Part shown: one piece after another, positions 10,619-52,495 of the stretch | Position numbering within the stretch: the stretch's first letter is position 1 | Layout: every line of letters begins with the position of its first letter | From: a virus | Length of the DNA stretch: 64,000 bases | Virus genome (UHGV): UHGV-1558314 | Direction: 5' to 3' (one strand) | Notes under the pieces: model-generated | What the model was told of the DNA's origin: nothing | Seen by the model: the letters and a program-made list of their open reading frames with translations, nothing else | Databases searched by the model: none | Translations under genes and position numbers: made by a program

Positions 10619-10635
10619 TGTTGTAGAGGTTTTAT

Positions 10636-10664
10636 ATTATATATTGATATATTACAACATTTGT
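10636..10664 (-). promoter_or_regulatory. conserved phage promoter motif (ATGTTGTAATAT...TATAAT)
   Basis: Minus-sense AAATGTTGTAATATATCAATATATAATATAAAACCTCTACAACAATG; the -10 TATAAT lies about 20 nt before the ATG. Confidence 0.45.
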
Positions 10665-10710
10665 TGTCAATTTGCACAATTGTTGTTAACAAAATGCATT
10701 ACATTGACAA

Positions 10711-10744
10711 AAAAATAAAGGCTCAGTTTGTATAACTGAGCCTC
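10711..10744 (-). terminator. rho-independent terminator after thyA
   Basis: 10-bp stem AGGCTCAGTT/AACTGAGCCT with 5-nt loop, followed on the minus strand by TTTATTTTTTTG. Confidence 0.55.
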
Positions 10745-10763
10745 TTGAAATGACACGAACTTA

Positions 10764-26025: not shown

Positions 26026-27582
26026 TCATTGCACTTCTACGAATGGCTCTTTCAACACAAAGCTGTCACCATTGCAACATGCGGCTGAGCCATCGTCTGC
26101 ATCAAGTGCGCATGACATATCAGACTTGCAGAACTTGCAATATGAACATGACCATGCATGACTCATAAAGTTGTTTGCTTCACAAATTACACAGCGCTCA
26201 TGTGAAAGTGTATTGTCGCAATTGTCACAAGACTTCTTGATTGGCACATCTTTATTGATATATGCAAGATGCAATGCAATATCATACACAAAGTCACCCG
26301 TATATTGCTGAATGAAATCAGTGTGCCACAACTCTTTTAACAATTGTGTATGTCTATATGGCTGAACAATGTCTTCAAGATGCTGCAAGTCATCATCGCT
26401 AACCATGAGCTTCTTAATGACAAACTGTTTGAACTGCGGCCATCTGTCAAACATATAGAGTTTGCATGAGTTGTGCACAAGTGGAACACAGCCAAGCACA
26501 ATGCTTTCACAGAATCTACGCAAACTAAAACAGTTTGCATCATATGACGGCACAATCAATGTGAATCTGCTATGCTTGATGAGTTCAAGGTATGTGTCAT
26601 ATGGCAGTAGCTTGTCTGACAATGGCTGCTGTTGCTTGTCCCTGCTGAAAAATCTGAACACAATGCCTTTATCAATTGCATCTTGATTGTGCAGATGCAT
26701 GAGTTTGTTGATGAGTTCTGTGCGTTCAGTTTTGTCTCGCCAAGTATTCGTCAATGCAAATGCAAAATTCAGTCGCTTGTCATCAAACGTCGCTTCAATG
26801 TCATCCCAAGTTTTGTCATGCAAATACCAGTATTGCTGTGATGGGCACCATCCATAATATGCAATAGCGTCTTGTTCTGCTGTAACGTCATACACATATG
26901 CAGAATTGTATTCAAGGCCAAGCCCTTTGACATTGTTGCAGTCATGAAAGTACCAATGCTGCACTTTGAATATCTTTGATGCACTGAATGCGCTTTCATA
27001 TGGCCCTGAATAGCGATAGTCAATGTAATTGAGCTTGTGCTGCAATGGGTCTTCGACAAAGTTGTTTATGACTGTGCCTTGTTGTTTGCCATTAGTCTTG
27101 CGAGCATTCAATGCAATATTGTACTGCATAATGACTGACAGCATCTCATACACTACATACATGAGTGCTTTGTAGACTGAGCCTGCTGCGTCAATTAGCG
27201 GCAAATCACGTTTGACTGATGCAGTACCAAATGTCTTGCAATATGCAGAAAATGTATCAAGTTCTGCCTGTTGAAATGAATTGCATGCGCCATTGAATAT
27301 GTTGAATGTTGCAATGTAGCTCATATTACAAGATGTCATTGACATATCAAGACGCTTCATAATGTCAGCAATGCGACATTGAGCAAAATCTGACACATCA
27401 ACATATTTGACATGATGACCTGATGCAGTCAAGCCAACTGCGACTTCTTTCATTTGTGGCACAAAGCCTACTACAATGAACAAGTCATCTTTGTTTGCTC
27501 GTTCAAACATTGCTGCACTTTTCCAAGTCAATGAATTGAAAAAGTCTATGTAGCCAGTCTGTGTGATGATATGTGTTCTCAT
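26026..27582 (-). CDS. putative DNA glycosyltransferase, GT-B-like (paralog A2) with Cys-rich C-terminal tail
   Basis: Paralog of 21763..23001 (VEDPLQHKLNYID, CPSQQYWY, VPSYDANCFSLRRFCESIVLGCVPLV). Extra C-terminal Cys cluster (CDNCDN...CVICE...CSYCKFCK). Confidence 0.45.
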   Translation of the reverse strand: MRTHIITQTGYIDFFNSLTWKSAAMFERANKDDLFIVVGFVPQMKEVAVGLTASGHHVKYVDVSDFAQCRIADIMKRLDMSMTSCNMSYIATFNIFNGACNSFQQAELDTFSAYCKTFGTASVKRDLPLIDAAGSVYKALMYVVYEMLSVIMQYNIALNARKTNGKQQGTVINNFVEDPLQHKLNYIDYRYSGPYESAFSASKIFKVQHWYFHDCNNVKGLGLEYNSAYVYDVTAEQDAIAYYGWCPSQQYWYLHDKTWDDIEATFDDKRLNFAFALTNTWRDKTERTELINKLMHLHNQDAIDKGIVFRFFSRDKQQQPLSDKLLPYDTYLELIKHSRFTLIVPSYDANCFSLRRFCESIVLGCVPLVHNSCKLYMFDRWPQFKQFVIKKLMVSDDDLQHLEDIVQPYRHTQLLKELWHTDFIQQYTGDFVYDIALHLAYINKDVPIKKSCDNCDNTLSHERCVICEANNFMSHAWSCSYCKFCKSDMSCALDADDGSAACCNGDSFVLKEPFVEVQ

Positions 27583-38553: not shown

Positions 38554-39305
38554 TTCACTTCAGGTTTTGCTTGCTTGGCCAACTCAGCTTCAGCATTGAA
38601 CTCTTTGCCCTCAGCTTTCATTGTTTCAGCATAAGTCTTTTCATCAGTGTAACGTTCTACGTCATCACCAAGCAGTTTTGCAACTTCATCATCTGCTTCA
38701 AACAATGGCTGTGGATTGTCATCATTGTCATCTTTGAGTTGCTCAAATGTGCTGTTATGCTTTTCTGCAATTTTGATGAGGTCAACGATTGAACGAGTTA
38801 CGAGTTCACCATTGATGCCTGACTGTTGTTCAGATTGACCAGAGCCTTGTTGCAATTCTGCTTGAGTTGCTCGAACATTATTATTGAGTGATGCAAGTAC
38901 ATTGGGAAGAGTTCGACAATATGATATATACTGCTGAACCAACGACATTGCATCATTCTGCAGTTTGATGAGAAATGCAAACTCACCCATGCCTCCGCCT
39001 TGTGCATCAATGCGCTCGAATACTGAATCAAGTGCATGCATTGCATAGAACACTTGTTTGCAAAGTAAATTGATGTTTGTCTTCTCCATCTCGATTGATG
39101 CATCGATAAACGGTGACTTAACATCTGCTGCTATGCACAATTTGCGAACTTCGTCAACATATTTTGAACACTTGTCAAGTGTCTTGTCAAGTTTGCTTCG
39201 GTCAAACTGCTTGTAAACTTCTAATGCATCGCTTACTTCTGCAGCATCCAATATTGCATTTGCTGCAGCCAATTCTGATTCTCTGCTCATCTCAAAATGG
39301 TCCAA
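38550..39305 (-). CDS. hypothetical protein (251 aa)
   Basis: ORF track. Confidence 0.45.
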   Translation of the reverse strand: MDHFEMSRESELAAANAILDAAEVSDALEVYKQFDRSKLDKTLDKCSKYVDEVRKLCIAADVKSPFIDASIEMEKTNINLLCKQVFYAMHALDSVFERIDAQGGGMGEFAFLIKLQNDAMSLVQQYISYCRTLPNVLASLNNNVRATQAELQQGSGQSEQQSGINGELVTRSIVDLIKIAEKHNSTFEQLKDDNDDNPQPLFEADDEVAKLLGDDVERYTDEKTYAETMKAEGKEFNAEAELAKQAKPEVK

Positions 39306-39901
39306 GCTTCAATGATTGCTGAAAAATCTTCAAAGGGCATTGTAGTGTAGCCGGAATCACCCCAAGATATACCCCAGCTATTCTTGATGATGAATGAGTC
39401 TTTTGTATAGCCGACAATTGACACTGCATGACCACCAAAATTGCCATCGCCTTTCCAAAAATGCTCAGCATCAATGTCTTTTACGAGCATACCAACAAAG
39501 ACAGGCCCATTTGCTACAACAGCAGATTTGATTTCATCAATTGTGTAGCAACGTCTGTATGCAGTTATTGGCAATTGCTCTGAGCCCTTTGACATTTTGA
39601 TTGGCTGTGCTTTGAGTAGCTTAAAGACGTCACGTGGAATCATGCCCTCTTGAGGCTTATTTGAACGACGCTCATACAATGCTTTGATGTCAAGCTTGCC
39701 TTGCATAGACAGCACAGAAGACCACCAGTCAATCATTGTTGCTGCTGTGTAAGCTGCACACATTGATGTACTGCCTTGGTCTTCTACTTGAAGCTGAGCA
39801 AGCTTATATGCAAGTGGCAAGTCGGTTTTTGCGTCAAAGCGCAAGTCTCTGTCATCTTGTGGTGACTGGATGTAGCCCAGTCCATATGTCATCTGTTTCA
39901 T
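39287..39901 (-). CDS. papain-like (C1 family) cysteine peptidase
   Basis: Catalytic motifs in order: QGSTSMCAAYTAA (Gln...Cys), GGHAVSIVGY (His), KNSWGISWGDSGY (Asn-Ser-Trp). Confidence 0.6.
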   Translation of the reverse strand: MKQMTYGLGYIQSPQDDRDLRFDAKTDLPLAYKLAQLQVEDQGSTSMCAAYTAATMIDWWSSVLSMQGKLDIKALYERRSNKPQEGMIPRDVFKLLKAQPIKMSKGSEQLPITAYRRCYTIDEIKSAVVANGPVFVGMLVKDIDAEHFWKGDGNFGGHAVSIVGYTKDSFIIKNSWGISWGDSGYTTMPFEDFSAIIEAWTILR

Positions 39902-41477: not shown

Positions 41478-42401
41478 TTACATTGAGATGTTAAGAATTC
41501 GCTTGACTACAGAATCGATATCATTGTTTGCAGCATTGCACAGTTCCATGCGAACATTAGAATCAATGAACAAGTTATGAAACGTTGACGCAGCTTGAAC
41601 AAGATGACACCAGATTGCTCGTCTACACATTGCAAGTTCTCTGTCAGCTTTGCTGCATTGCATGAGATACGAGTTTGCTCTATCACTGTAATATGACTGA
41701 GCATACTTGCATTGACGTTCAGCGTCATTTACAATGTACATGTATGGAGTCTTGACGTCAAAGTAAATTTTGCAATACAATGACTTGTCATCAATTGCAA
41801 AGTCATCAATATTGACAGTCAAATCTGTCATTGCATACGTCAAACCTCTGTCATGCAAATATGCAAACATTGCAGTATAGCATTGATGCAATGTAGCAAT
41901 CAATTCACATTTGTCAGTTGACTGAACAACTTTGTATGCTGCTTTGATTGCCTTTGCATATATGAGCTGCAAACACAGCTCTTTGCGACGCAATGCTTTG
42001 CGTTCAAATTGTCGCTCATATTTGATGTGCTTACGTATGCGTTTGCGTTCTGTAAGCAATTTCGACAAGTCAATACGAATGTATTTTGATACATTTGTAA
42101 CAGCGGTGTCAATACTGTGCCACTGTTCAATGTCGTCAATGTCAAGTTCATGCGCAAGTGAATGTGACACTCTGCCGTACATGTATAAGACTTTGCAGTT
42201 GTCATCGCATAATGCATACATACACCATGATGACAGTTCAATGTCATGCTCAAATGTGGCAAAATCAACTTCTACTGCAATATTTGCGTTTGTGCATATG
42301 CATTTTTGAATGTCAATGTCACTTAAGTACCACTTGAAAAATGAATCGACTTCTGCAGAATGTTGACTTATGATGCGCTTGAACAGCTTGTTCGATTTCA
42401 T
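41478..42401 (-). CDS. hypothetical protein (307 aa)
   Basis: ORF track. Confidence 0.45.
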   Translation of the reverse strand: MKSNKLFKRIISQHSAEVDSFFKWYLSDIDIQKCICTNANIAVEVDFATFEHDIELSSWCMYALCDDNCKVLYMYGRVSHSLAHELDIDDIEQWHSIDTAVTNVSKYIRIDLSKLLTERKRIRKHIKYERQFERKALRRKELCLQLIYAKAIKAAYKVVQSTDKCELIATLHQCYTAMFAYLHDRGLTYAMTDLTVNIDDFAIDDKSLYCKIYFDVKTPYMYIVNDAERQCKYAQSYYSDRANSYLMQCSKADRELAMCRRAIWCHLVQAASTFHNLFIDSNVRMELCNAANNDIDSVVKRILNISM

Positions 42402-42688
42402 GCTCGTATAAGTTTGATGACACAGTGCCTACAAGTAGCAAAAGTACTCAATATTGTTTCTACTTTGACACTGTACTGCACATCAATGACACGATATGTG
42501 CCACACAATGCAGACATTTCTTGACGACGTTCTGCAGGTACATTGACACTGTCTGTCAAATTGATGATTGCACCAATCTGCATAGATGACATGACTGCAA
42601 ATTGTTCTGGACCTACTTCTGCTTTGCGATATGCGACTTGTTTGTTGTTTTCGCAAATACTGAATGCTACTGTATAATCTGGTGTCAT
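42398..42688 (-). CDS. hypothetical protein (96 aa)
   Basis: ORF track; 4-nt overlap. Confidence 0.4.
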   Translation of the reverse strand: MTPDYTVAFSICENNKQVAYRKAEVGPEQFAVMSSMQIGAIINLTDSVNVPAERRQEMSALCGTYRVIDVQYSVKVETILSTFATCRHCVIKLIRA

Positions 42689-42700
42689 GATAGTCGCGTT

Positions 42701-43180
42701 TTATTCATTATCGTCATCATATCCCATGCAATCTTCAAGACTTGCAAAGTCATCATCAAAGTCATCGAATTCAGGCTCTTTATTGCACCATTTGTAAGGT
42801 GGATTGTTGAGCAATTCAAGCTCTATTGCATTTGACTGTGCAGAAATCGGAACATATTCGAATGCTTCGACTGACATATCAAATTTGATGCAATGCAGCC
42901 ACGGAAACATATCAGTGTCCTCATGCACAATGGGCTGACGAACGTAGTCTTTCATTGCAATGAACTTGCTGCTGTTGTCCCAGTCTTCAATAGGAATTTC
43001 AAACTGTGATATGGTCGTATGACAATCGTCAAAGAAATTGCAGGATACGCCTACAATAACGTGCGTGTCTGTACGTTGACGTTCTATTGCAAGAAAGTCG
43101 TGTTTCTTGGAAAGATGAACTTCTCCATGCTTCTCTAAAAAGATTTTAAGAAGCTCTTTGTTAATGTCATTGATATTCAT
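42701..43180 (-). CDS. hypothetical acidic protein (159 aa)
   Basis: ORF track; acidic C-terminus. Confidence 0.4.
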   Translation of the reverse strand: MNINDINKELLKIFLEKHGEVHLSKKHDFLAIERQRTDTHVIVGVSCNFFDDCHTTISQFEIPIEDWDNSSKFIAMKDYVRQPIVHEDTDMFPWLHCIKFDMSVEAFEYVPISAQSNAIELELLNNPPYKWCNKEPEFDDFDDDFASLEDCMGYDDDNE

Positions 43181-43202
43181 TGCTGTAGAGATTTTATGAT
43201 GT

Positions 43203-43514
43203 TTAATACTGAGTTTTTGCAGATATAGCTACTTTAATTGCTGCTTTAATTTGTTCGATTGCATCTTGTGAGAACAATTCTGGCACTGCTAAATAGTGAT
43301 ACCATGATGTTGGCGCTGCCTGCATATCAGTTCGTTTAATTGCGAACCGAAGTTCTTTTGGTGAACCAAGGCAACCCATATATTGGCAGCTTATTAGCTT
43401 AACTTGCACATTGTTAATGCTGCTATGAATAGCAAGATGAGACAGATTTATTCTGTCATAGAATTTTAGATGCTTGAGTTGTTTTTCAATTGCTTTGAAT
43501 GCGTTTGTATTCAT
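43203..43514 (-). CDS. hypothetical protein (103 aa)
   Basis: ORF track; promoter/5' UTR (AAACCTCTACAACA-ATG) near-identical to that of gene 10397..10618. Confidence 0.4.
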   Translation of the reverse strand: MNTNAFKAIEKQLKHLKFYDRINLSHLAIHSSINNVQVKLISCQYMGCLGSPKELRFAIKRTDMQAAPTSWYHYLAVPELFSQDAIEQIKAAIKVAISAKTQY

Positions 43515-43587
43515 TGTTGTAGAGGTTTGTATACTATATTGATATATGATAATTGTACTACAAATTTATCAAATTTGCACTGATTTA

Positions 43588-43696
43588 ATATATAATATGT
43601 CAATAAATTTCACATATAAAGTCTTTTCGCTTATGAAAACTACTCAACTCTGGTTTGAACGCCAGCAGTCAATCGCGGGGGGGCTCTTCGTGACAC
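43588..43696. repeat. left arm of a near-perfect inverted repeat of about 109 bp
   Basis: tatataatatgtcaataaatttcacatataaagtcttttcgcttatgaaaactactcaactctggtttgaacgccagcagtcaatcgcgggggggctcttcgtgacac; its reverse complement occurs at 46611-46721 with one small indel. Confidence 0.85.
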
Positions 43697-43749
43697 AGGC
43701 ATGCGCATATACGTGCGTGACAATGCTGATAACATTGTTAATGGGCTAA
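43633..43749 (+). other. short leader ORF (MKTTQLWFERQQSIAGG...) containing a G7 tract, in the +1 frame relative to downstream gene 43701..44333
   Basis: ATG at 43633; G7 at 43677-43683. The gene A frame is open from 43659 through the G tract, so a -1 shift or one extra G fuses leader and gene. Confidence 0.5.
43677..43683 (+). repeat. homopolymeric G7 tract (candidate slippage site)
   Basis: cgcgggggggctc read directly. Confidence 0.9.
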
Positions 43750-44333
43750 CTTGCTATTTGCACTGTATTGAAACAGGTCGAACACTTCAAAGAGACTTGC
43801 ACACAAGCAATAATGGTGATGGCGTCACATTTTACATAACTGGTGATGACTATAAGCAATTAGTCGGCTCAACAAAAGACGCACAATTTTATCTTATTGA
43901 CACGCCTGATGCTGCAGATATGTCTTGGTCATCTGCAGCATTTACACTTAGATATGGCGCAGATATAGTTAACAACACACTAAATGTCAATATTGAAGCG
44001 TTCAAATCATGCGAAGTAACAATAACTAACAGTGGCAATACATGCAGTTGCACCGCAATGCTTGAATCTGCATTGCCAGTGGCAATTAAACTGTCAACAA
44101 TTTGCAATACATCAGTAGCATCTAATGTCGATGTGTCAGTTAACATAGCTGCAAATAGCTTGACTGCTAATTTTAGAGTTGGCAATAGCTTATCTGCAAA
44201 ATTGACGCATGTCGGCATATGGTCTATTGCTAATGCTTCTTATGTTTCACCAATATATGAGGGTGCTATAATTGTGAAAACACTGAACGACATATTTCAC
44301 GTGTTCATAACAGATAAGACAACACTTGGCTAA
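43701..44333 (+). CDS. cassette gene A (210 aa), candidate variable fibre or receptor-binding protein
   Basis: ORF track; first plus-strand gene after the strand switch; starts 5 nt after the IR. Confidence 0.5.
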   Translation: MRIYVRDNADNIVNGLTCYLHCIETGRTLQRDLHTSNNGDGVTFYITGDDYKQLVGSTKDAQFYLIDTPDAADMSWSSAAFTLRYGADIVNNTLNVNIEAFKSCEVTITNSGNTCSCTAMLESALPVAIKLSTICNTSVASNVDVSVNIAANSLTANFRVGNSLSAKLTHVGIWSIANASYVSPIYEGAIIVKTLNDIFHVFITDKTTLG

Positions 44334-44368
44334 GTGTACATATCTTACAACATTCAAACATATAGCAT

Positions 44369-44425
44369 ATGAAAACTCCACAATTTTGGTTTGAGCGTCA
44401 ACAAGGGCTAGCGGGGGGGCTCTAA
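44369..44425 (+). other. leader ORF copy B (MKTPQFWFERQQGLAGGL, 18 aa) with G7 tract
   Basis: Diverged at nucleotide level from the IR copy but conserved as peptide. Stop immediately after the G tract, while the gene B frame opens immediately before it. Confidence 0.5.
44413..44419 (+). repeat. homopolymeric G7 tract
   Basis: gcgggggggctc read directly. Confidence 0.9.
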
Positions 44426-44462
44426 ATTAGTCTACCTGCAACTTGTTATTGGCGACGCTTCG

Positions 44463-44891
44463 TTGTACAACTTTGGCACTACTGAAACAATGGCGATACA
44501 AGGTACAATATCGCTTGACAATGTCACAGTTAACATACCAACGTCAGGCTTTCCTATCAAAATGATGGAATGCCGCGGTGGTGAAACTCATGCAATTGGT
44601 GCGTTAATGATGCCAAAAGCTTATGACTACTCAAACTTTGCTGCAAAAATTGGTTTTGGCTGCTATGCAGCAGATGGTCGTGGCACTGGCAACGTTTACA
44701 ACATCAATGTGTATGCCAACATTAACAACACAAGCCCTGGTGGTAATCCCATACTGTTAACTTCTATGGCATGGCAATATCCATTAGGCGTTGGTGATAA
44801 GCTTACATTGCCAATGTCAAATCCATCTGTCAAAGTTAACAATGGAGATATCGTGTCAATCATACTTAAGAATGCAAGGAAAGTCAGCTAA
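44463..44891 (+). CDS. cassette gene B (142 aa; start uncertain)
   Basis: ORF track uses a TTG start; in-frame ATG at 44490. The frame is open upstream to the G7 tract (RGGSKLVYLQLVIGDASLYNFGTTET...). Confidence 0.45.
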   Translation: MYNFGTTETMAIQGTISLDNVTVNIPTSGFPIKMMECRGGETHAIGALMMPKAYDYSNFAAKIGFGCYAADGRGTGNVYNINVYANINNTSPGGNPILLTSMAWQYPLGVGDKLTLPMSNPSVKVNNGDIVSIILKNARKVS

Positions 44892-44975
44892 CTGACAGAT
44901 GCATCACATATAAGCAATGCTCCACTGAGAAATCTCAGTGGAGCATTTTTTGTGCTGTTTGGCAATTTTAGACAT

Positions 44976-45386
44976 CTATATGCTATAGTATGCCCTATTG
45001 ACAAGCAACACATAGTCACCACACAGTAATGCAGCGTACGACATCATGCAATCATCTTGCGGCGCACTGACATCTGCATATCCTTTTGCGTACATAACCA
45101 TGTTGTTGTGCACAAAGTCAACTTTAGCATTTGCATAAATTGCATCAGTGCCACGGTCAACTATAAATGATTCACCGCGTTCAAGCGCATTTGCATTAAT
45201 TGTCACGGTAGATGTACCAGCATTAATGCTGTACAATGTATTTGGCACAGCATTAATGCTGGTACTTGATACCGTCATAAACTTAGCAGCAAATATGCTA
45301 TCAACCAAATCACCAAATTGTGCTGAGGTGGGTTTATCTCCGGTTTCAAAATACGTTTTGAGTACCGAACGTGTTTGAACTGCCAT
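44976..45386 (-). CDS. tail-fibre-like protein (cassette gene D, 136 aa)
   Basis: N-terminal LKTYFETGDKPTSAQFGDLVDSIF resembles a motif I recall from phage tail fibre/collar proteins. Not searched. Confidence 0.45.
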   Translation of the reverse strand: MAVQTRSVLKTYFETGDKPTSAQFGDLVDSIFAAKFMTVSSTSINAVPNTLYSINAGTSTVTINANALERGESFIVDRGTDAIYANAKVDFVHNNMVMYAKGYADVSAPQDDCMMSYAALLCGDYVLLVNRAYYSI

Positions 45387-45404
45387 ATGTTTCGATGTTT
45401 TAAG

Positions 45405-45587
45405 TTATGCAATGTGACATGAAAGCAACACTGCAAACTTTTCATCGAATGCAATGTCACCTACGTTATAACAAGAGATTGAGCCAGATATGTGACCCCC
45501 CCAATTCAATTTGAATGTCATAAAGCTTATGAGTTTGTAAATGTTTGTTTTGTTTATATATTTTGACTGCCCATATGTACATATCAA
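45405..45587 (-). other. small upstream ORF (60 aa) containing a G7 tract, in frame with and 6 codons upstream of gene D
   Basis: ORF track; ...FKLNWGGHISG... spans the G7 tract. Confidence 0.3.
45496..45502 (-). repeat. homopolymeric G7 tract (C7 on plus strand)
   Basis: gtgaccccccccaatt read directly. Confidence 0.9.
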
Positions 45588-45658
45588 AACAACATCTTAG
45601 TTGTTTTGCATCTTGCATCAAAACAACATCTTAGTTGTTTTGCATCTTGCATCAAAAC
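45583..45658. repeat. tandem direct repeat (34-bp unit, 2.2 copies), each unit containing a 9-bp-stem hairpin
   Basis: atcaaaacaacatcttagttgttttgcatcttgc repeated; CAAAACAAC / GTTGTTTTG inverted repeat inside each unit. Confidence 0.8.
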
Positions 45659-45895
45659 TCATAGGCATTGCATTCAAAGATGAAGATTTTACAGCAGACA
45701 TTGCACTTGATAACGCGTCATTTTATGATGGCCAAACTGCATGGCTAACTGGAAAGCTTCTGGCAGCATTGTGTTAAGTATAAAACAGTTACATTGAAAG
45801 CTAACACAACAGTAAACATCGCCATTTAATGCACATCAAAAACTCCACTGAACAATTAAGTTCAGTGGAGTTTTTGATGTGTAGTGTGCAAAATA

Positions 45896-46549
45896 CTACA
45901 ACATATTCCAGTTTGTTATGTCATACATGTTGAAGCTGAACGCTGATGTGATGTATCCAAGAGTAGTCAAGATGTCCACACCAACTACAGGGTCATTTGC
46001 AATAAGCAAAATACAGTTAGTGACAGACGTATCGACCATATTGTCTGCTTGAAAATCATTGTGCATCAACCAGTCAGCAAAGCAGATGTCATAGTACACA
46101 GGATTGCCTGCAAATACTTTATCATTTCCAAATGCTTCTGATGGGTGCGACAATGTAGATGCAAGCAGTTGAATGTCTTCATCTGTGCAAGACGATTTAA
46201 TGTCATCAAGCACAATTGCTACACGCTGCTCATTTGTCTCTGAATCACCTCTATGAATTTCATGAATCCAAGGCAAGCATGCAAGTGCATCACCACATGT
46301 CAAATTGACATTATCAAGTGTCTCGCCTTGACCTGCGTAGCAATATAAAGTGGAGCCAGTGCCATAACGTAGACAGTCATTTATGCTGACATTATCAAGA
46401 TACACTGAACAAATTGACAATGCACCTGCACCAAGCCTGTTTGCAGGAATTGTCAACTTATATGTTGGCACGCCATTTGACTGCACTGTAATAGGCGAGC
46501 CCGCTAATAATTCACCAGTGTCAGCATCATAGCATTCGACTTCTTGCAT
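45896..46549 (-). CDS. cassette gene C (217 aa), candidate variable fibre or receptor-binding protein
   Basis: ORF track; its frame is open upstream through the IR G7 tract (TPAVNRGGALRDTIISGTINKADGSLLEAAYAT-MQEVECYD...). Confidence 0.5.
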   Translation of the reverse strand: MQEVECYDADTGELLAGSPITVQSNGVPTYKLTIPANRLGAGALSICSVYLDNVSINDCLRYGTGSTLYCYAGQGETLDNVNLTCGDALACLPWIHEIHRGDSETNEQRVAIVLDDIKSSCTDEDIQLLASTLSHPSEAFGNDKVFAGNPVYYDICFADWLMHNDFQADNMVDTSVTNCILLIANDPVVGVDILTTLGYITSAFSFNMYDITNWNML

Positions 46550-46610
46550 AGTCGCATATGCAGCTTCAAGTAGTGAACCATCTGCTTTGTTGATAGTGCC
46601 GCTGATAATA

Positions 46611-46721
46611 GTGTCACGAAGAGCCCCCCCGCGATTGACTGCTGGCGTTCAAACCAGAGTTGAGTAGTTTTCATAAGCGAAAAGACTTTTTGTATGTGAA
46701 ATTTATTGACATATTATATAT
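46611..46721. repeat. right arm of the inverted repeat (reverse complement of 43588-43696)
   Basis: Direct comparison of both arms; includes the leader ORF start (ATG at 46674, minus) and a G7 tract. Confidence 0.85.
46624..46630 (-). repeat. homopolymeric G7 tract (C7 on plus strand)
   Basis: gagcccccccgcg read directly. Confidence 0.9.
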
Positions 46722-46734
46722 CAGGCAGCAATAT

Positions 46735-46775
46735 GCACAAAAAAGAAGAGCATCGGTTAAAAACCGATGCTCTTT
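46735..46775 (-). terminator. rho-independent terminator after BACON-like gene
   Basis: Stem GAAGAGCATCGGTT / AACCGATGCTCTTT, followed on the minus strand by TTTTTTGTG. Confidence 0.55.
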
Positions 46776-46822: not shown

Positions 46823-47437
46823 TTACGATACAGTCCACGGGCAGTTTGCGGTAACCGTAACCGTAACGGCAGGAGTACCGGCCTGAGGAATCGTGATTTC
46901 CTGCTTGTCGAGTACCAGCGTCGGGTCACCAGCAGCCTGAACGATTGCAATCTGAGCAGTCTGGGCACCGTTGGCAGTTACCAAAATCGATGTCGTGCGC
47001 TCGTTAATCGTCAAGTTGGCAGGAATGTCAAGCTCAATGCTGAAAGCAAACTCGGCGTTGGCACCAGGGTCACCAGTGATTGCTACGCCATTGTTGGTTT
47101 CTACACCAGCAACTGCGTACTTTTTAGGCAGTTCGATAACAAACTCGCCGCCCTCAACGATGCTGAACGTCAGCTTCGATGAGTTAGATACACCGGTTAC
47201 GGTAAGAGTACCGCCAGCTTTAGGAGCTGACATCTCTGAGCCGTTGTCAAATGACACGAACTCAGCCTTTGCAGTCTGCTGTACATTGTACGTTGAAGGC
47301 GCTGCAATACCAGCACCCTGAACGGTTACAACACCAGTACGTGCAATACGACCAGTGTGGGCGTCAGCAGAGTTGGAAATTGAACCATTACCCGAACCAG
47401 ATGTCGGGCTAAGTTTCAACCATGCGGGTTTAGCCAT
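46823..47437 (-). CDS. BACON/Ig-like domain protein (204 aa)
   Basis: N-terminus MAKPAWLKLSPTSGSGNGSISNSADAHTGRIARTGVVTV fits the BACON pattern (W-L...SP-x-SG-x-G...R-x-G-x-VTV) and ends ...VTVTANCPWTVS. Codon usage is G/C-richer than its neighbours. Confidence 0.5.
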   Translation of the reverse strand: MAKPAWLKLSPTSGSGNGSISNSADAHTGRIARTGVVTVQGAGIAAPSTYNVQQTAKAEFVSFDNGSEMSAPKAGGTLTVTGVSNSSKLTFSIVEGGEFVIELPKKYAVAGVETNNGVAITGDPGANAEFAFSIELDIPANLTINERTTSILVTANGAQTAQIAIVQAAGDPTLVLDKQEITIPQAGTPAVTVTVTANCPWTVS

Positions 47438-48166: not shown

Positions 48167-51100
48167 TTATCGAACAAGGAATGATGTACCAACAACCATA
48201 TTCGGGATTGCCAAGCCATTGCCAGACTGGCTTACTGCAACTGTGCCACTTGTGTAGCCTGACAATGCAGCAGTAATTGTTGCCGACCTGCTGTTATCTG
48301 AACCCCAGTTGTTTGCAGCTGACAATGTCGAACCGCTGATTGTGAATGCACCATTGTTCGATGAGTACGTTGGAGTAACCGCAGCATCTGATGTTGTAGA
48401 CTGACCTGTCGTGTACTTTGTGACAGTTCGACCTGTCGTAGACAATGTTGCAGTGCCACCAGCAGCCCCAAAGCTTGTAACAGTTGAGCTGACAATCAGA
48501 GTCTTCGTAGTCGAAGTCACACTGTTGGCTTCCTGTGTAGCAGTGATTGCTTTTGAGCCAGTTTGACCATTCAACGCAACCGTCATATTGACTGTAGCGG
48601 TTCTTGCAGAACCAGCAGTTGTGCCACGATTTGCAGCAGTCAATGAACCGGTTGTACTACTGTTAAGCGTAAAGCCAGTAGTTGTAGCCATACTGTATGA
48701 AATTGTACCGCCAGATGTAATAGTAGTTTTTGAACCACTTGTGTACGTTGCTGTCTGCGAGTATGCTGGCGTGCCTGTTGGAGTCTTTGTTGCACCTGCT
48801 GCAGCAAATGTTGCATATGATGTTGCTGTAGTAACTGTGACTGCGCTGTATGATACACTGTTAGCTGCTTGATAAACATCAAGAGCTTTTGTAGCAGTCT
48901 TAGACCCTTCACCAGTAGCAGTTGCAGTCAAAGTGCCAATCTTTGTACGAGCTTTGACTGTAGTGCCAAGCGATGATGCGCTGACTTTTGTGCTATACGC
49001 AATGCTAACTGAACCTGGCCTTGTGCTGCCAGACGTATATGTAATTGTCTGTGATGCACTGATGCCAGACATTGATGCAACTTCACCGCCACCAGCAGGA
49101 ATATCTGACACAGTTCCACCAGAAATTGTAACCGCGCCATATGTCGTAATTGCATTTGCAGCTTGGTACACATCGACTGCTTTTGTTCCAGATTTGCCAT
49201 TGACTGTTACTGTAACAGTAGATGTTGTAATCTTTGTGCGGGCTTTAGCAGTAGTGCCAAGTGAACTACCAGACACTGCGCCAGTAGACGTTGTTACACC
49301 AGTGCCAGACCATGATTTGCTGCCACCAGACGTAACTGTCTGTGTTGAGCCACTTGACCACATAACTGATTGACTGAATGACACTGAAGGCGTAACTGAG
49401 CCACCCTTTGCAGGAACATCGCTATAAGTCATCGAAACTGTGGGCGTACCATATGTAGCAGCATTAGCATTTTGAGATGCAGTAGCAGTCTTTGTTCCAC
49501 TGATGGCTTTTGTGCCTGCAGCATTGTATGACGCAGTAGGCGTCCATGTAGCTGTTACAGTCTTTGTGACTGTCAGCGATGTAGTTGCGCCACTTGCAGT
49601 AGTGCCTTTTGATGATGCGGTTATAGCACCAGTAGATGTATTGAGTGCAGTGAACAATCCTGATGCGCCTGGCCAACTATATGATGTTGTAGTTGACAAT
49701 GAACCATACGTAGATGCTGGCGCAGTAGTTGAAGTACTGCCACTACTAAAATGGTATGTTACTGTGTTTGCACCATTTGACGGTGTAGATGTTCCGCCAC
49801 CTGCAGCAATTGCAGGATATGACATCGAACCAACTGCAATATTGAGTGCAGTCACATAGTTGCCTGCCTGATAAATCGTGGCAGACTTGCTGGCAGATTT
49901 GCCATTCATTGTGACTTTAACAGTCAGTGTGCCTGCAGTAGTCTGGTTAGATATTGCGGTGTCTTTTGATTGCGCAGTGACTGTTGACGTATACTCAATT
50001 GTTCCGCCGCTTGTCAGTGTTTCTGTCGTCTTTTCACCAGTAGCATATGTCGTAGTTTTGACCTGCGAGTAAGTTACTGTGCCAGATTTTACAGAACCTC
50101 CGCTTGCTGCAATGATAGTTGCAGACGGCGTCAAGTTAACTGTGATATCGCTATATGTAACTGTGCCAGCAGATTGAGCTGCTTGATAAACATCTGCAGC
50201 TTTTGATGCAGACTTGCCATTGAGTGCTACTGTGACAGTCAATGTGCCAATCTTTGTTCGTGGCTTAACTGTTGTGCCAAGTGATGATGCAGTGATACCT
50301 GCTGCTGGACTGTATGAAATTGTTGCACCAGTAGTGATGTTCTGTGTTGAAGTTGATGTGTATGTTGCAGTCTGCGAATATGACACATTGCCGCTCTTAA
50401 TTGTACCACCAGTTACAGGAATATCTGCTACAGTGAAGCTTGAAATTGTAACTGCGCCATATGACACAGTGTTTGCAACTTGCTTGACTGTGCAAGAACC
50501 AGTTTTTGTAACACCGCCCTCAGTATATGAGCCAGAAATTGTAATGCTGCGTTCTGCGCCTACGACTGTTGTGCGATTTGCTGCAGTTACTGTAGCAGTC
50601 GACAATGTAAAGCCAGTTGCTGAACCGCTAAGTGTTGCAGATACTGCAGCAGATGACGTTGAGCCTGATGCATATGTGTATGACGCTGTTGAAGTGATTG
50701 TAGTTGAACCGCCACCAGCTGCCAATGTTGCAGCGCCAGGTGTCAATGTCAAGCCATTCAGCGTCTTTGAGTTTGCAGTTTGTGTTGCAGTAGCAGTTTT
50801 TGTAGCAGACTTGCCATTGATTGCTACCGTAACTGTGACAGCATTTGAAGCATCAGTAGAGCCTACATATGATGTGCCCATTGACGTTACAGTCAATGCG
50901 CCACTTGTCGTATTCAATGTCCAGCGTGACTTAGCAGTCATTGCATAAGACAATGTAGCGCCACTTGTCAATGTGCCACCTGAGCCAGCTACGCCATTCC
51001 AAGTCCAAACTTGTGAATATGAAACAGTTGGGTTTGATGTACCACCAGCAGGAGCAATGTTAGCATATGAGAATGTTCCAATGACAGGCGTTGCATAGAC

Positions 51101-52495
51101 TTTAGCACCTGCAGCTTGGTTGAACGTAATATCTTTTGATGCAGACTTACCATTTGCAGTGACTGTCAAGGTGACAACAAACCCATTACGTGCAACAGTA
51201 GAATTGTTGTTTGTCACTGTGACATTCAAGCCAGACAAGCTGTAGCCTGTTGCAGCAGTTTTGACGGCAGCAGTCCATATGCCGCCTGACGTGTTACTAT
51301 CAGTTGAGCCGCTGCTGTATGTCATTGACTGCGTAAATGTTGCAGATGCATTAGCTGCAACAGTTTGACCTGCTACTGCAAGAGCAACTGGTGTTGTCTT
51401 TGTAATGACTGGTGTGCCGTATGTAATGCTGTTGGCTGCTTGTGTAATTGATACAGTAGCAGTTGCATTGCCATATGACGCTGTGCCGCTAAATGACCGA
51501 GCATCACCGACAGTCTTACCACGATTTGCAGATGTTACAGAATTTGCAGATATTGTAAAGCCTGTTGCAGTGCCTGTAATTGTTGGCTTGACATTTGTTT
51601 CAGTAGATGTAACAACACCGTTCCATGTCACAGTGTACGTACCAGTGATGGTTGATGTTCCACCTGCTGCAGTATGACTTGTTGAATATGTGTTCAAAGC
51701 AAGTTTGTACACAACTGAACCTGCAGCTTGTGAGCATTTAACGGTCTTCGATAATTCATGACCACTTACAGTCAGTGTTGGTGTAACTGCTGCAGTTGAC
51801 GTGTTGTTCGGTGTATTGACAGTGATTGTTGCAGGACCTGTGCCAGATGCTTTTGAGACTGACCAACCTGCAGGTACGCCCGAAATTGTCCATGCAAAGT
51901 CAGGATTACAAGAAATTGCGAATGTCTTCGATTCACCCTTTGCAACAAATGACAAAGTTTCTGGTGATACTGCCAATGTTGCACTTGCACCAGCTTGATT
52001 TACTGTAAATGTTGCAGACTTGCCACCAGGCGTTGACAATGTGAAAGTGAATGCCTTTGCAGCGATTGCAGTATGTGCAGCAATCTGCACTCGTACAATG
52101 ACTTCAAATTCTGCATTGACACCAGGGTCATTGTCAAAATTTGTATTAAGCGCATAATCTTTGCTTGCAACAGTTACGCCAAGCACTGTGCCACTTGCAG
52201 TACCGCCAGTACTGCCAAGCACAAGTTTTTGTGCATTTGTGACACATTTCAATGTTGCAATAGTGCCACCATTTGACGCAATGTTTGTAGATGCAACTGT
52301 AGCTCGTATAGTTTCACCAGGAGACTCTTGCAATACTGCACAGTTTTCAGTTACTACTGGTGAACCTGTAGTTGTTTGCGCAGTAAAGCTGCCAGACCTG
52401 TTATTTCGACCAGTATGCACAGATGCTTTGACAGACAACTGTGAGTTGCCTGTGCCAACATCAGGTGTAACTGTCAACCAAGTAGGCTTTGCCAT
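48167..52495 (-). CDS. giant Ser/Thr/Gly-rich fibre or adhesin-like protein (1442 aa) with N-terminal BACON-like domain and about eight tandem Ig-like repeats
   Basis: N-terminus MAKPTWLTVTPDVGTGNSQLSVKASVHTGRNNRSGSF; repeated T[L/V]TV-x-x-NGKS-x-[ST]K...YQAAN modules of about 100 aa. Plus-strand ORFs here are antisense artefacts. Confidence 0.65.
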   Translation of the reverse strand: MAKPTWLTVTPDVGTGNSQLSVKASVHTGRNNRSGSFTAQTTTGSPVVTENCAVLQESPGETIRATVASTNIASNGGTIATLKCVTNAQKLVLGSTGGTASGTVLGVTVASKDYALNTNFDNDPGVNAEFEVIVRVQIAAHTAIAAKAFTFTLSTPGGKSATFTVNQAGASATLAVSPETLSFVAKGESKTFAISCNPDFAWTISGVPAGWSVSKASGTGPATITVNTPNNTSTAAVTPTLTVSGHELSKTVKCSQAAGSVVYKLALNTYSTSHTAAGGTSTITGTYTVTWNGVVTSTETNVKPTITGTATGFTISANSVTSANRGKTVGDARSFSGTASYGNATATVSITQAANSITYGTPVITKTTPVALAVAGQTVAANASATFTQSMTYSSGSTDSNTSGGIWTAAVKTAATGYSLSGLNVTVTNNNSTVARNGFVVTLTVTANGKSASKDITFNQAAGAKVYATPVIGTFSYANIAPAGGTSNPTVSYSQVWTWNGVAGSGGTLTSGATLSYAMTAKSRWTLNTTSGALTVTSMGTSYVGSTDASNAVTVTVAINGKSATKTATATQTANSKTLNGLTLTPGAATLAAGGGSTTITSTASYTYASGSTSSAAVSATLSGSATGFTLSTATVTAANRTTVVGAERSITISGSYTEGGVTKTGSCTVKQVANTVSYGAVTISSFTVADIPVTGGTIKSGNVSYSQTATYTSTSTQNITTGATISYSPAAGITASSLGTTVKPRTKIGTLTVTVALNGKSASKAADVYQAAQSAGTVTYSDITVNLTPSATIIAASGGSVKSGTVTYSQVKTTTYATGEKTTETLTSGGTIEYTSTVTAQSKDTAISNQTTAGTLTVKVTMNGKSASKSATIYQAGNYVTALNIAVGSMSYPAIAAGGGTSTPSNGANTVTYHFSSGSTSTTAPASTYGSLSTTTSYSWPGASGLFTALNTSTGAITASSKGTTASGATTSLTVTKTVTATWTPTASYNAAGTKAISGTKTATASQNANAATYGTPTVSMTYSDVPAKGGSVTPSVSFSQSVMWSSGSTQTVTSGGSKSWSGTGVTTSTGAVSGSSLGTTAKARTKITTSTVTVTVNGKSGTKAVDVYQAANAITTYGAVTISGGTVSDIPAGGGEVASMSGISASQTITYTSGSTRPGSVSIAYSTKVSASSLGTTVKARTKIGTLTATATGEGSKTATKALDVYQAANSVSYSAVTVTTATSYATFAAAGATKTPTGTPAYSQTATYTSGSKTTITSGGTISYSMATTTGFTLNSSTTGSLTAANRGTTAGSARTATVNMTVALNGQTGSKAITATQEANSVTSTTKTLIVSSTVTSFGAAGGTATLSTTGRTVTKYTTGQSTTSDAAVTPTYSSNNGAFTISGSTLSAANNWGSDNSRSATITAALSGYTSGTVAVSQSGNGLAIPNMVVGTSFLVR

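What the first reader, a model, noticed from the sequence alone, without database searches (positions are those of the whole stretch)
43633..43749. Leader ORF A: the G7 tract sits where the upstream frame must shift by one nucleotide to enter gene A
The leader starts at ATG 43633 and carries the G7 tract at 43677-43683. Gene A (ATG 43701) is in the -1 frame, and that frame is open from 43659 through the tract to the ATG (TPAVNRGGALRDTG-MRIYV...). A single G insertion or a -1 ribosomal slip would give MKTTQLWFERQQSIAGG-ALRDTG-MRIYVRDNADN... as one polypeptide. Gene C has the identical arrangement on the other arm.
Basis: seen in the sequence. Interest (0 to 1): 0.8.

Follow-up and report, generated by a model that had tools for sequence, protein, structure and literature searches.

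The report
Poly-G on/off switches in phage tail-region genes
The run of seven G's is a slippage-prone switch inside one gene (short leader plus "gene A") of an uncultured large gut-type phage: at seven G's the gene is off, related phages carry eight G's and make exactly the predicted fused protein, and several neighbouring genes have the same switch.

Summary
ATG 43633, the G7 tract at 43677-43683 and gene A in the -1 frame, open from 43659, are all there. Gene C on the other arm has the same layout.

Related phage genomes carry G8 at this tract (locus L024, protein P0030), and one carries an interrupted GGGGGTGG (L018). All three encode MKTTQLWFERQQSIAGG/V-ALRDTG..., 233-234 aa. G6 alleles also exist. 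Gene C occurs as G6, G7 and G8; the G8 form, P0016, is the predicted 259-aa fusion.

- **Coding starts at the tract.** Between the tract and the annotated ATGs, substitutions are synonymous in the body frame: 11 of 12 sites for C and B together.
- **The internal start is not conserved.** The ATG at 43701 is GTG in relatives.
- **The tracts are the fastest-changing sites.** Two near-identical genomes differ over 5.5 kb only by one tract length (G9 versus G10) and a repeat copy number.
- **The tracts are not chance.** The window has four G/C runs of 7 or more, against 0.05 expected, all inside this 3-kb locus next to baseplate genes.

Best reading: replication slippage creates a poly-G contingency locus, and gene A is OFF in this genome. 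No frameshift-stimulating RNA structure was found, so ribosomal frameshifting is a minor rival. The closest known case is the poly-G tracts of Campylobacter Fletchervirus phages. This is a new variant with shared leader modules and inverted-repeat arms.

The parts
43588..43696 (+). Left inverted-repeat arm: AT-rich upstream region, type-1 leader, G7 and 13 nt beyond the tract
   Evidence: I1 and I3: 97% complementary to 46611-46721. The same module is present in relatives.
43633..43749 (+). Leader ORF A as read with G7, the OFF state: MKTTQLWFERQQSIAGG then an out-of-frame tail LFVTQACAYTCVTMLITLLMG*
   Evidence: The tail is not conserved in relatives.
43677..43683 (+). Poly-G tract (G7) of cassette A. 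It is the length-variable switch and is ON at G8.
   Evidence: Alleles seen: G6 (L023, P0025); G7 (window, L005, L011, L013); G8 (L024, P0030); GGGGGTGG (L018)..
43683..44333 (+). Body of gene A in the -1 frame (ALRDTG-MRIYV...). It is coding from the tract onward, and ATG 43701 is internal.
   Evidence: The ATG is GTG in L005, L013, L018 and P0025.
44369..44425 (+). Diverged type-1 leader B (MKTPQFWFERQQGLAGGL*), with G7 at 44413-44419
   Evidence: Its differences from leader A within FERQQ are all synonymous third-position changes.
44421..44891 (+). Body of gene B in the +1 frame (SKLVYLQLVIGDASLYNFGTTETMAIQG...). It is ON at G6 or G9 and OFF here.
   Evidence: In relative L005 the same body is joined in frame to a type-2 leader, MNITMNWGG. 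There are 4 synonymous and 0 non-synonymous sites upstream of ATG 44490.
44916..44947 (.). Terminator-like hairpin between the converging genes B and D. It scores as a terminator on both strands, but only the + strand copy is followed by a clear T-run.
44976..45386 (-). Gene D: 136 aa with an invariant N-terminal 34 aa and a hypervariable middle. Its fold resembles the T4 gp9/gp10 and tailspike N-terminal attachment domains.
   Evidence: AlphaFold2 pLDDT 89. Foldseek matches.
45402..45521 (-). Short upstream ORF with a type-2 leader (MTFKLNWGG...) carrying G7 at 45502-45496. It ends 15 nt before the ATG of gene D.
   Evidence: Tract lengths in relatives are 7, 8, 9 and 10. In 9 of 11 cases the frame gives the 38-39-aa ORF. 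One allele is interrupted, GGGGGAGGGG.
45583..45650 (.). 34-nt tandem repeat, 2 copies, each containing a hairpin. The copy number varies between relatives.
   Evidence: D11. A 68-nt copy-number difference separates the near-identical L016 and L017.
45832..45881 (.). Perfect 22-bp hairpin just downstream of the stop of gene C; a likely terminator
   Evidence: I4
45896..46624 (-). Body of gene C in the -1 frame (ALRDTIISGTINKADGSLLEAAYATMQEV...). It is ON at G8 and OFF here.
   Evidence: P0016 is the 259-aa fusion. There are 7 synonymous and 1 non-synonymous sites between the tract and ATG 46549.
46624..46630 (-). Poly-G tract (G7) of cassette C
   Evidence: Alleles seen: G6 (L003, L012, L017); G7 (window, L014, L015, L018, L020); G8 (P0016)..
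46611..46721 (-). Right inverted-repeat arm, the same promoter-like region plus leader module as the left arm. The leader ATG is at 46674.
46746..46774 (-). Terminator-like hairpin separating the upstream BACON-domain gene from the right arm

Best explanation
The G7 tract is a hypermutable homopolymer, a contingency tract, inside the 5' end of a single gene. The true reading frame of that gene is the leader (ATG 43633), then the tract, then "gene A".

**How it works.** Slipped-strand mispairing during phage DNA replication changes the number of G's.
- At G8 the 233-aa protein MKTTQLWFERQQSIAGG-ALRDTG... is made.
- At G7, as in this genome, or at G6, translation ends after a short peptide and the body is silent.

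**The wider locus.** Gene A is one of several such cassettes in a 3-kb locus at the end of the baseplate and tail module.
- A and C use an identical promoter-like region plus leader module, present as inverted-repeat arms. Both are ON at G8.
- B uses a diverged copy of that leader and is ON at G6 or G9.
- A fourth tract sits in a short ORF upstream of the gp9/gp10-like gene D.
- Relatives carry further cassettes (E', F, H and a lipoprotein gene) with tracts of 7 to 11 G.

**What is shown and what is inferred.** The tract-length polymorphism, the in-frame natural alleles, and coding selection starting at the tract are shown. Two points are inferred. The first is that slippage is fast enough to create mixed populations within one infection lineage. 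The second is that the products are peripheral tail or host-recognition proteins, so that switching acts as bet-hedging for adsorption or host range.
For: 1. **Fused ON alleles of gene A exist in nature.** They are the uninterrupted G8 in L024, the 233-aa P0030, and the interrupted GGGGGTGG in L018. The last cannot be a homopolymer-length miscall and looks like a stabilised ON allele. OFF alleles with G6 (L023, P0025) and G7 (four assemblies) also occur.
2. **Gene C behaves the same way.** It occurs as G6, G7 and G8. P0006, the G6 form found on 6 contigs, has a body identical to P0005, the form called from ATG 46549 found on 52 contigs.
3. **A near-isogenic pair isolates the tract.** L016 and L017 show no substitution over 5.5 kb. 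They differ only by the E' tract (G9 versus G10) and by 68 nt of the 34-nt tandem repeat.
4. **The body frame is coding from the tract onward.** For C, 7 sites are synonymous and 1 is not in the body frame, against 0 and 8 in the leader frame. For B the figures are 4 and 0 against 0 and 4. ATG 43701 is GTG in several relatives. Body F has no start codon near the tract.
5. **The leader is a translated peptide.** Leaders A and B differ at four consecutive codons (FERQQ) only at synonymous third positions.
6. **The tracts are not chance.** There are four runs of 7 or more against 0.05 expected, all in this locus.
7. **The context fits tail and host-recognition genes.** A baseplate wedge gene and BACON-domain proteins lie alongside. 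Gene D has a gp9/gp10-like and tailspike N-terminal-like fold and a hypervariable middle.
8. **There is a precedent.** Fletchervirus phages carry poly-G tracts of 7 to 11 G in receptor-binding proteins (Sorensen 2021, as described).
Against: - No read-level data were available, so heterogeneity within one population and the switching rate are not shown.
- G7, the OFF length, is the commonest for every type-1 cassette whatever frame its body needs: A in 4 of 9 alleles, B in 7 of 8, and F and H once each. A freely switching tract under selection for expression would not obviously behave like this. The pattern leaves room for expression by slippage at the RNA or ribosome level.
- The function of bodies A, B and C is unknown. 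They have no Pfam or PHROG hits, and the AlphaFold2 model of A has a pLDDT of only 44.
- The tract upstream of gene D never gives a long fusion in any frame, so the simple ON/OFF model does not explain it.
Confidence: 0.78

Rival explanations
1. Programmed -1 ribosomal frameshifting. G7 is the designed state, and a fraction of ribosomes slip back on G_GGG_GGG to make the leader-A and leader-C fusions alongside the short leader peptide.
For: - In the leader frame the tract reads GC-G GGG GGG. That is a perfect X_XXY_YYZ heptamer in the correct phase.
- G7 is the modal length for A, C, F and H.
Against: - No stable structure lies downstream. Folding z-scores are -0.6, +1.6, +0.15 and +0.3, and the sequences of A, C, F and H diverge 9 to 13 nt after the tract.
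- Rfam gives nothing at the tracts.
- Cassette B at G7 and cassette E' at G10 would need a +1 shift, not -1.
- G6, G8 and interrupted in-frame alleles exist.
- From general knowledge, not tested here: GGG-rich heptamers are poor shifters in E. coli.
Confidence: 0.08
2. Transcriptional slippage. RNA polymerase adds or drops a G on the 7-11-nt run. Each cassette, whatever its DNA length, then yields a minority of in-frame mRNAs in either direction.
For: This would explain why cassettes needing -1 (A, C, F, H) and cassettes needing +1 (B, E' at G10) can all sit one nucleotide away from ON. No RNA structure is required.
Against: - There is no direct evidence for it.
- The polymorphism at the DNA level and the stabilised interrupted ON allele show that the DNA length itself is what varies and what is selected.
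- From general knowledge: slippage is best documented on A/T runs of 9 or more.
Confidence: 0.07
3. The leader is an independent small upstream ORF, and gene A is translated from its own ATG at 43701. The G tract has no frame-switching role.
For: Gene callers annotate A, B and C from internal ATGs. An ATG exists at 43701.
Against: - That ATG is GTG in several relatives.
- Purifying selection in the body frame extends upstream to the tract for C and B.
- Body F has no nearby start codon.
- Natural fused ORFs exist.
Confidence: 0.04
4. Sequencing or assembly artefact. The true tract is G8 everywhere, and the homopolymer length is miscalled.
For: Homopolymer runs are error-prone. The platforms behind these assemblies are unknown.
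Against: - G7 at tract A recurs in four independent assemblies.
- Other tracts in the same contigs are called at 8 to 11 G.
- The interrupted alleles GGGGGTGG and GGGGGAGGGG are not length miscalls.
- There are no frameshifts elsewhere in the 5.5-kb near-identical pair.
Confidence: 0.02

Closest known systems
Hypermutable poly-G tracts in receptor-binding-protein genes of Campylobacter Fletchervirus phages (Sorensen et al. 2021, Cell Rep 35:109214; known here only through citing papers)
   Same: - Homopolymeric G tracts of about 7 to 11 nt lie inside phage genes of the host-recognition region.
- Length changes switch the reading frame.
- Several tracts occur per genome.
- The proposed role is bet-hedging.
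   Different: - The phage is unrelated: about 175 kb, 40% GC, with distant kinship to Bacteroidota jumbo myoviruses. There is no DNA match in the phage collection.
- Here the tracts sit at the junction between a short, shared, translated leader module and interchangeable bodies.
- Two cassettes are mirror-image copies in 109-nt inverted repeats.
- Leader and body pairings differ between strains at or just after the tract.
- No phenotype or mutation rate has been measured here.
Phage contingency loci in T2/T4 and other phages (Gomez, Barrick and Waters, bioRxiv 10.1101/2025.10.21.683753)
   Same: Reversible +/-1 frameshifts arise at homopolymer repeats through polymerase slippage and generate population heterogeneity.
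   Different: - Those are mostly A-runs of 6 or more, scattered through many gene classes and under-represented in tail fibres.
- Here the only G/C runs of 6 or more in 64 kb are concentrated in one 3-kb locus. They are placed 6 to 14 codons after start codons, a dedicated architecture.
Bacterial simple-sequence contingency genes, such as the poly-G tracts in Campylobacter, Neisseria and Haemophilus surface genes
   Same: - A tract lies early in the ORF.
- States are ON or OFF according to length modulo 3.
- Interrupted tracts act as stabilised alleles.
- The affected genes are clustered and surface-related.
   Different: These tracts are encoded by a virus, and several unrelated bodies share one N-terminal leader module.
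Invertible tail-fibre segments of phages Mu (G segment, Gin) and P1 (C segment, Cin)
   Same: Inverted repeats flank a segment of roughly 3 kb carrying alternative genes next to tail genes. One contig (L014) shows the segment in the opposite orientation.
   Different: - Each arm carries its own start codon and leader, so inversion changes no coding sequence.
- No recombinase gene lies within about 5-8 kb on either side of the locus (Pfam table).
- Switching is by tract length.
Canonical -1 programmed ribosomal frameshifting, such as dnaX or the phage tail-assembly chaperone G/GT
   Same: A short 0-frame product and a longer -1 frame product share an N-terminus. The heptamer G_GGG_GGG is in phase.
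   Different: There is no stimulatory structure, the frame relationship is not conserved between alleles or cassettes, and in-frame DNA alleles exist.

Membership tests
Simple-sequence-repeat (homopolymer) phase-variable / contingency gene | Homopolymeric tract of about 7 nt or more inside, and near the 5' end of, a coding sequence | tested here: met
   G7 lies 14 codons after ATG 43633. The same holds for B and C.
Simple-sequence-repeat (homopolymer) phase-variable / contingency gene | Tract length differs between otherwise identical or near-identical genomes | tested here: met
   L016 and L017 differ over 5.5 kb only at a tract (G9 versus G10) and a tandem repeat. The gene C bodies of P0005 and P0006 are identical but have different tract states. 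Tract A occurs as G6, G7 and G8.
Simple-sequence-repeat (homopolymer) phase-variable / contingency gene | Length changes toggle between a full-length ORF and early termination | tested here: met
   For A, G8 gives 233-234 aa, G7 gives 38 aa and G6 gives 19 aa. For C, G8 gives 259 aa.
Simple-sequence-repeat (homopolymer) phase-variable / contingency gene | The ON-state ORF is a real, selected coding sequence across the tract | tested here: met
   Upstream of the annotated ATGs, 11 sites are synonymous and 1 is non-synonymous in the body frame. Leader differences are synonymous. An interrupted in-frame allele exists.
Simple-sequence-repeat (homopolymer) phase-variable / contingency gene | Elevated, reversible mutation rate and mixed tract lengths within one population | not testable with these tools
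   No raw reads or cultures were available.
Fletchervirus-type poly-G receptor-binding proteins | The tract-bearing genes encode receptor-binding proteins, and switching changes host recognition | tested here: inconclusive
   The locus adjoins baseplate and BACON-domain genes. Neighbour D has a gp9/gp10-like fold. Bodies A, B and C have no family hits and no usable model.
Fletchervirus-type poly-G receptor-binding proteins | Sequence homology to Fletchervirus phages or their receptor-binding proteins | tested here: not met
   The locus has no blastn match in 50,697 phage records. The closest cultured relatives by protein are Chryseobacterium, Tenacibaculum and Sphingomonas jumbo phages.
-1 programmed ribosomal frameshift site | Slippery heptamer X_XXY_YYZ in the 0 frame | tested here: met
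   GC-G GGG GGG in the leader frame.
-1 programmed ribosomal frameshift site | Stimulatory hairpin or pseudoknot a few nucleotides downstream | tested here: not met
   Folds of the 80 nt after four tracts give z-scores from -0.6 to +1.6. No Rfam frameshift element lies at the tracts.
-1 programmed ribosomal frameshift site | Frame relationship and slippery site conserved in homologues | tested here: not met
   G6, G8 and interrupted alleles exist. Cassettes B and E' need a +1 shift.
Site-specific invertible tail-fibre segment (Mu G / P1 C type) | Inverted repeats flanking the segment | tested here: met
   Arms of 109 nt, 97% complementary.
Site-specific invertible tail-fibre segment (Mu G / P1 C type) | Adjacent invertase (serine recombinase) gene | tested here: not met
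   No recombinase domain was found in the neighbours scanned or in the precomputed Pfam table, which covers about 8 kb to the left and 5 kb to the right of the locus.
Site-specific invertible tail-fibre segment (Mu G / P1 C type) | Inversion joins alternative variable 3' parts to one constant 5' gene part | tested here: not met
   Both arms carry a complete upstream region, ATG and leader, so inversion leaves every leader-body pairing unchanged.

The most novel reading that the evidence does not exclude
The poly-G tract may be more than an on/off switch. It may also be the joint of a modular cassette system. A constant unit, made of the promoter-like region, the translated leader and the tract (plus ALR), is re-attached by recombination at or within 13 nt of the tract to unrelated bodies.

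Three observations point this way:
- Body B carries either a type-1 or a type-2 leader.
- In L019 an A-type leader sits on body B.
- An identical leader unit sits on body F in L004 and on body H in L018.

The phage would then hold a repertoire of peripheral tail proteins, each kept one slip away from expression. Neighbouring strains in the same sample would express different subsets. A phase-variable upstream ORF might additionally gate gene D through translational coupling. That would be a viral, combinatorial contingency system, not a set of isolated hypermutable genes.
Probability: 0.3. Interest if true: 0.78.

Novelty: new variant of a known kind. Interest (0 to 1): 0.62.

Why it matters
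A 2025 review describes poly-G phase variation encoded by phages themselves as "an exceptional case", known from Campylobacter phages. A 2025 preprint argues that contingency loci are general in phages.

This locus is an independent and elaborate example in an uncultured phage of about 175 kb. Its relatives and its BACON domains point to a Bacteroidota host. It recurs in at least 14 public assemblies, some with cohort-style sample names that suggest the human gut; that last point is an inference.

Natural ON, OFF and locked alleles are already visible in public data. Read-level counts of tract lengths could therefore test directly whether gut phages hedge their bets on host recognition.

The finding also has a practical consequence. 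Gene callers truncate or split these genes: 206, 210, 217 and 251-aa calls for what are 233 and 259-aa proteins.

Tried and rejected
- **DNA similarity to known phages:** none found.
- **Pfam and PHROG scans of A, B, C and D:** no hits.
- **AlphaFold2 on body A from a single sequence:** pLDDT 44, unusable, so no fold search was run.
- **Profile search with fused N-termini for other bodies carrying the leader:** it returned only one 47-aa leader ORF, P0109. The index holds cluster representatives, which are mostly OFF calls.
- **Direct look-up of the contigs encoding P0016 and P0030:** These two fusions are therefore known at protein level only. L024 and L018 supply the DNA-level evidence.
- **Flanking-gene look-ups:** they mostly returned the source contig, or short contigs that break inside the repeat arms.
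- **RNA element hypothesis for the leader:** rejected. Rfam has nothing above threshold, and the third-position substitution pattern indicates a peptide.
- **Double-glycine bacteriocin-type leader:** considered from memory because of the ...IAGG ending. Rejected, because the Gly-Gly is simply what the G tract encodes and no supporting context exists.
- **Invertible-segment switch:** rejected as the mechanism, for the reasons in the membership test.
- **Sigma-70 promoter scan:** no better than shuffled sequence, with 15 hits found against 12.5 expected. It is uninformative for a Bacteroidota-type phage.
Full report
**1. The observation**

- ATG 43633 opens MKTTQLWFERQQSIAGGLFVTQACAYTCVTMLITLLMG*, which ends at 43749.
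- G7 lies at 43677-43683.
- Gene A (ATG 43701, ending at 44333) is 68 nt downstream of the leader ATG, so it is in the -1 frame. That frame is open from 43659 and reads TPAVNRGGALRDTG-MRIYV.

Gene C mirrors this on the - strand. Its leader ATG is at 46674, G7 at 46630-46624 and the gene ATG at 46549, again a -1 offset. The frame is open as GG-ALRDTIISGTINKADGSLLEAAYATMQEV.

The two leaders, with about 45 nt of AT-rich upstream sequence and 13 nt beyond the tract, form inverted-repeat arms at 43588-43696 and 46611-46721. The arms are 97% complementary.

**2.

*A third leader copy.* It is 76% identical, starts at 44369, has G7 at 44413-19 and stops immediately (MKTPQFWFERQQGLAGGL*). Its downstream gene B is in the +1 frame, which opens exactly at the tract (SKLVYLQLVIGDASLYNFGTTETMAIQG...). 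B therefore needs G6 or G9.

*The leader is translated.* Leaders A and B differ at four consecutive codons (F-E-R-Q-Q) only at synonymous third positions. The leader is therefore a translated peptide and not an RNA or DNA motif.

*A fourth tract.* This G7, on the - strand at 45502-45496, lies in a short ORF (MTFKLNWGG...) upstream of gene D.

*The tracts are not chance.* These four are the only G or C runs of 6 or more in the 64 kb. A dinucleotide-preserving Markov model expects 0.05 runs of 7 or more, and none of 300 simulations reached four.

**3. Where the window comes from**

The window is part of IMG/VR contig UViG_3300045988_149023, 175,564 bp.
- It is a phage. It carries helicases and an SbcCD-like nuclease on one side. 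On the other side it carries a baseplate wedge protein, a head-closure-like protein and BACON-domain proteins.
- Nearly all genes are on the - strand.
- The locus has no DNA match in 50,697 phage records.
- The closest cultured relatives share 25-30% protein identity. They are jumbo myoviruses of Bacteroidota (Chryseobacterium MA9V-1/2, Tenacibaculum pT24 and PTm1), Sphingomonas PAU, and large uncultured metagenomic phage records of 460-735 kb.

The poly-G locus lies at the downstream end of the tail and baseplate module.

**4. Natural variants settle the fusion question**

I collected the same locus from a 94%-identical contig in the same sample (L003, L004, L005, L016). I also collected it from 12 further ENA, Logan and JGI assemblies, L011 to L024.

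| Cassette | Tract alleles seen |
|---|---|
| A | G6 (L023; P0025 = MNASSQSRG-ALRDTGVHIYV) |
| A | G7 (window, L005, L011, L013) |
| A | G8, uninterrupted (L024, 234-aa ORF; P0030, 233 aa = MKTTQLWFERQQSIAGGALRDTGMHIYVRDN...) |
| A | GGGGGTGG (L018, giving MKTTQLWFERQQSIAGVALRDTGVHIYV..., 233 aa) |
| C | G6 (L003, L012, L017, and the 251-aa protein forms) |
| C | G7 (window, L014, L015, L018, L020) |
| C | G8 (P0016, 259 aa, exactly the predicted fusion) |

The interrupted 8-nt allele is what a stabilised ON state of a contingency tract looks like, and it cannot be a homopolymer-length miscall.

**5. The body is coding from the tract, not from the annotated ATG**

- Among relatives, the 75 nt between tract C and ATG 46549 carry 8 variable sites. 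Seven are synonymous in the body frame and none is synonymous in the leader frame.
- For B, 4 of 4 variable sites are synonymous in the body frame and none in the leader frame.
- ATG 43701 of gene A is GTG in L005, L013, L018 and P0025.
- In body F (L004), which shares the same leader, the first Met codon is 17 codons after the tract.
- The upstream in-frame ATGs at 43546 and 43597 are out of frame or stopped in copies B and C. ATG 43633 is therefore the conserved start.

**6. The tracts are the fastest-changing sites**

- L016 (JGI) and L017 (an ENA assembly from another sample) align over 5.5 kb with no substitution. Their only differences are the tract of cassette E' (G9, in frame at 118 aa, versus G10) and two copies of a 34-nt tandem repeat just upstream of it.
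- P0006 is the G6 form of C and occurs on 6 contigs. P0005 is the 217-aa call from ATG 46549 and occurs on 52 contigs. The two have identical bodies.

**7. The locus is a set of cassettes**

*Two leader families.*
- Type 1 is MKT[TP]Q[LF]WFERQQ[SG][IL]AGG.
- Type 2 is M-x4-NWGG (MNITMNWGG, MQIPRNWGG, MTFKLNWGG).

*Type-1 cassettes.* The leader, the tract and CTCTTCGTG (which adds ALR) precede four unrelated bodies: A, C, F in L004 and H in L018. All four are in the -1 frame.

*Body B carries three different leaders:*
- its own diverged type-1 leader at G7 or G8, OFF in 8 of 8 cases;
- the A-type leader in L019;
- a type-2 leader at G7, in frame, giving 165 aa (L005, P0032).

The sequence is identical from the tract onward in each case.

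*Other tract-bearing genes.* The relative also has a lipoprotein-like gene with G8, in frame, after its lipobox. Cassette E' occurs at G9 (ON), G10 and G11.

*Two strains, two repertoires.* The two strains in one sample (3300045988) therefore display different repertoires.
- In the window strain A, B and C are all OFF.
- In the relative B, E' and the lipoprotein are ON, and A, C and F are OFF.

**8. What the products are**

A, B and C have no Pfam or PHROG hits. A single-sequence model of A was unusable, with pLDDT 44 and an all-beta prediction.

Gene D belongs to a family of 43 clusters. Its N-terminal 34 residues are invariant and its middle is hypervariable. It folds confidently, with pLDDT 89. 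The fold resembles the N-terminal attachment domains of CBA120 tailspike TSP4, T4 gp9 and gp10, and a Pseudomonas phage capsid spike (Foldseek E-values 5e-4 to 8e-3, TM about 0.45-0.5). It also matches many viral tail-fibre and baseplate models.

The position and this neighbour suggest peripheral baseplate or host-recognition proteins. That is an inference.

**9. Mechanism**

DNA-level slippage is the best-supported mechanism, for the reasons in sections 4 to 6.

Ribosomal -1 frameshifting deserves consideration, because GC-G GGG GGG is a perfect heptamer in phase and G7 is the commonest length. Several findings count against it.
- The 80 nt after the tracts fold no better than shuffled sequence, with z-scores from -0.6 to +1.6.
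- Rfam finds nothing at the tracts.
- Sequences diverge 9 to 13 nt after the tract.
- B and most E' alleles would need a +1 shift.
- In-frame alleles exist.

Transcriptional slippage could supply low-level expression in both directions and cannot be excluded.

The inverted repeats are not a Mu-type switch. Each arm has its own start codon, so inversion changes nothing, and no recombinase lies within about 5-8 kb on either side. One contig, L014, does join body C to the left flank, meaning the segment is inverted there. It is a low-coverage short-read contig, so this is only suggestive.

**10. Open points**

- Why G7, one step from ON, is the modal state of every type-1 cassette.
- What the tract upstream of gene D does. 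It is hypervariable (7, 8, 9 and 10 G, and an interrupted GGGGGAGGGG) but never yields a long ORF. In 9 of 11 cases it sits in the frame whose 38-39-aa ORF ends 15 nt before the ATG of D. That hints at translational coupling.
- The function of A, B and C.

**11. Comparison with what is known, and verdict**

The nearest precedent is the Fletchervirus poly-G tracts of 7 to 11 G in receptor-binding proteins (Sorensen 2021, as described). A second is the proposal that phages use contingency loci (bioRxiv 10.1101/2025.10.21.683753). Literature searches found no report of such a system in gut or Bacteroidota phages.

It is a new variant of a known kind.

Noticed in passing
window 45402-45521 (- strand); tract at 45496-45502: A fourth poly-G tract lies in a short ORF (MTFKLNWGG...) upstream of gene D. 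Its length is 7, 8, 9 or 10 in relatives, plus one interrupted GGGGGAGGGG allele, yet no frame gives a long protein. In 9 of 11 alleles the frame gives a 38-39-aa ORF that stops 15 nt before the ATG of D. This may be a phase-variable upstream ORF acting through translational coupling.
   Followed up: partly
window 45583-45650: A perfect 34-nt tandem repeat (ATCAAAACAACATCTTAGTTGTTTTGCATCTTGC, 2 copies), each unit holding a hairpin. Its copy number is one of only two differences between the near-identical loci L016 and L017. In relatives it lies just upstream of the E' leader. The window lacks the E' cassette.
   Followed up: partly
L014 (ERZ1106954 NODE-14520), compared with window 42379-46723: This contig joins body C, through the repeat arm, to the left flank of the window. 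The 2.9-kb segment between the arms is therefore inverted there. Several short-read contigs (L007, L008, L011, L018) also end inside the arms. The cause could be real inversion by recombination between the 109-nt repeats or an assembly ambiguity.
   Followed up: partly
L004 (contig UViG_3300045988_152288, 68918-70014): A further type-1 leader, G7 and -1 frame body (F) lies about 69 kb from the main locus in the relative. The equivalent position falls outside this window. Poly-G cassettes are therefore not confined to one locus.
   Followed up: partly
L005 about 10450-11520 (- strand); G8 at 11449: The relative carries an extra gene between B and D. It encodes a lipoprotein-like protein (MIKKMICIAVCAWMCASCEKNDGGG...) with repeated GNGKFV...TS.DG..WT motifs and an in-frame G8 right after the lipobox. 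This gene is absent from the window.
   Followed up: no
window 46823-47437 and 48167-52495 (- strand): BACON domains lie at the N-termini of a 204-aa and a 1442-aa protein. The large protein contains roughly 290-nt internal repeats (D3 and D6), perhaps repeated domains (not tested). Both genes lie immediately upstream of the poly-G locus.
   Followed up: no
window 39287-39901 and 26026-27582 (- strand): The phage encodes a papain-like Peptidase_C1 protein of 204 aa. It also encodes a 518-aa protein with a weak match to the Exostosin GT47 glycosyltransferase family. Both are unusual phage cargo.
   Followed up: no
C, H and E2 bodies (window 45896-46549; L018): Bodies C, H and a large E-type body share a short motif, (C/V)LPW(I/F)(H/Y), although they are otherwise unrelated by BLAST. 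They may be very distant paralogues.
   Followed up: no
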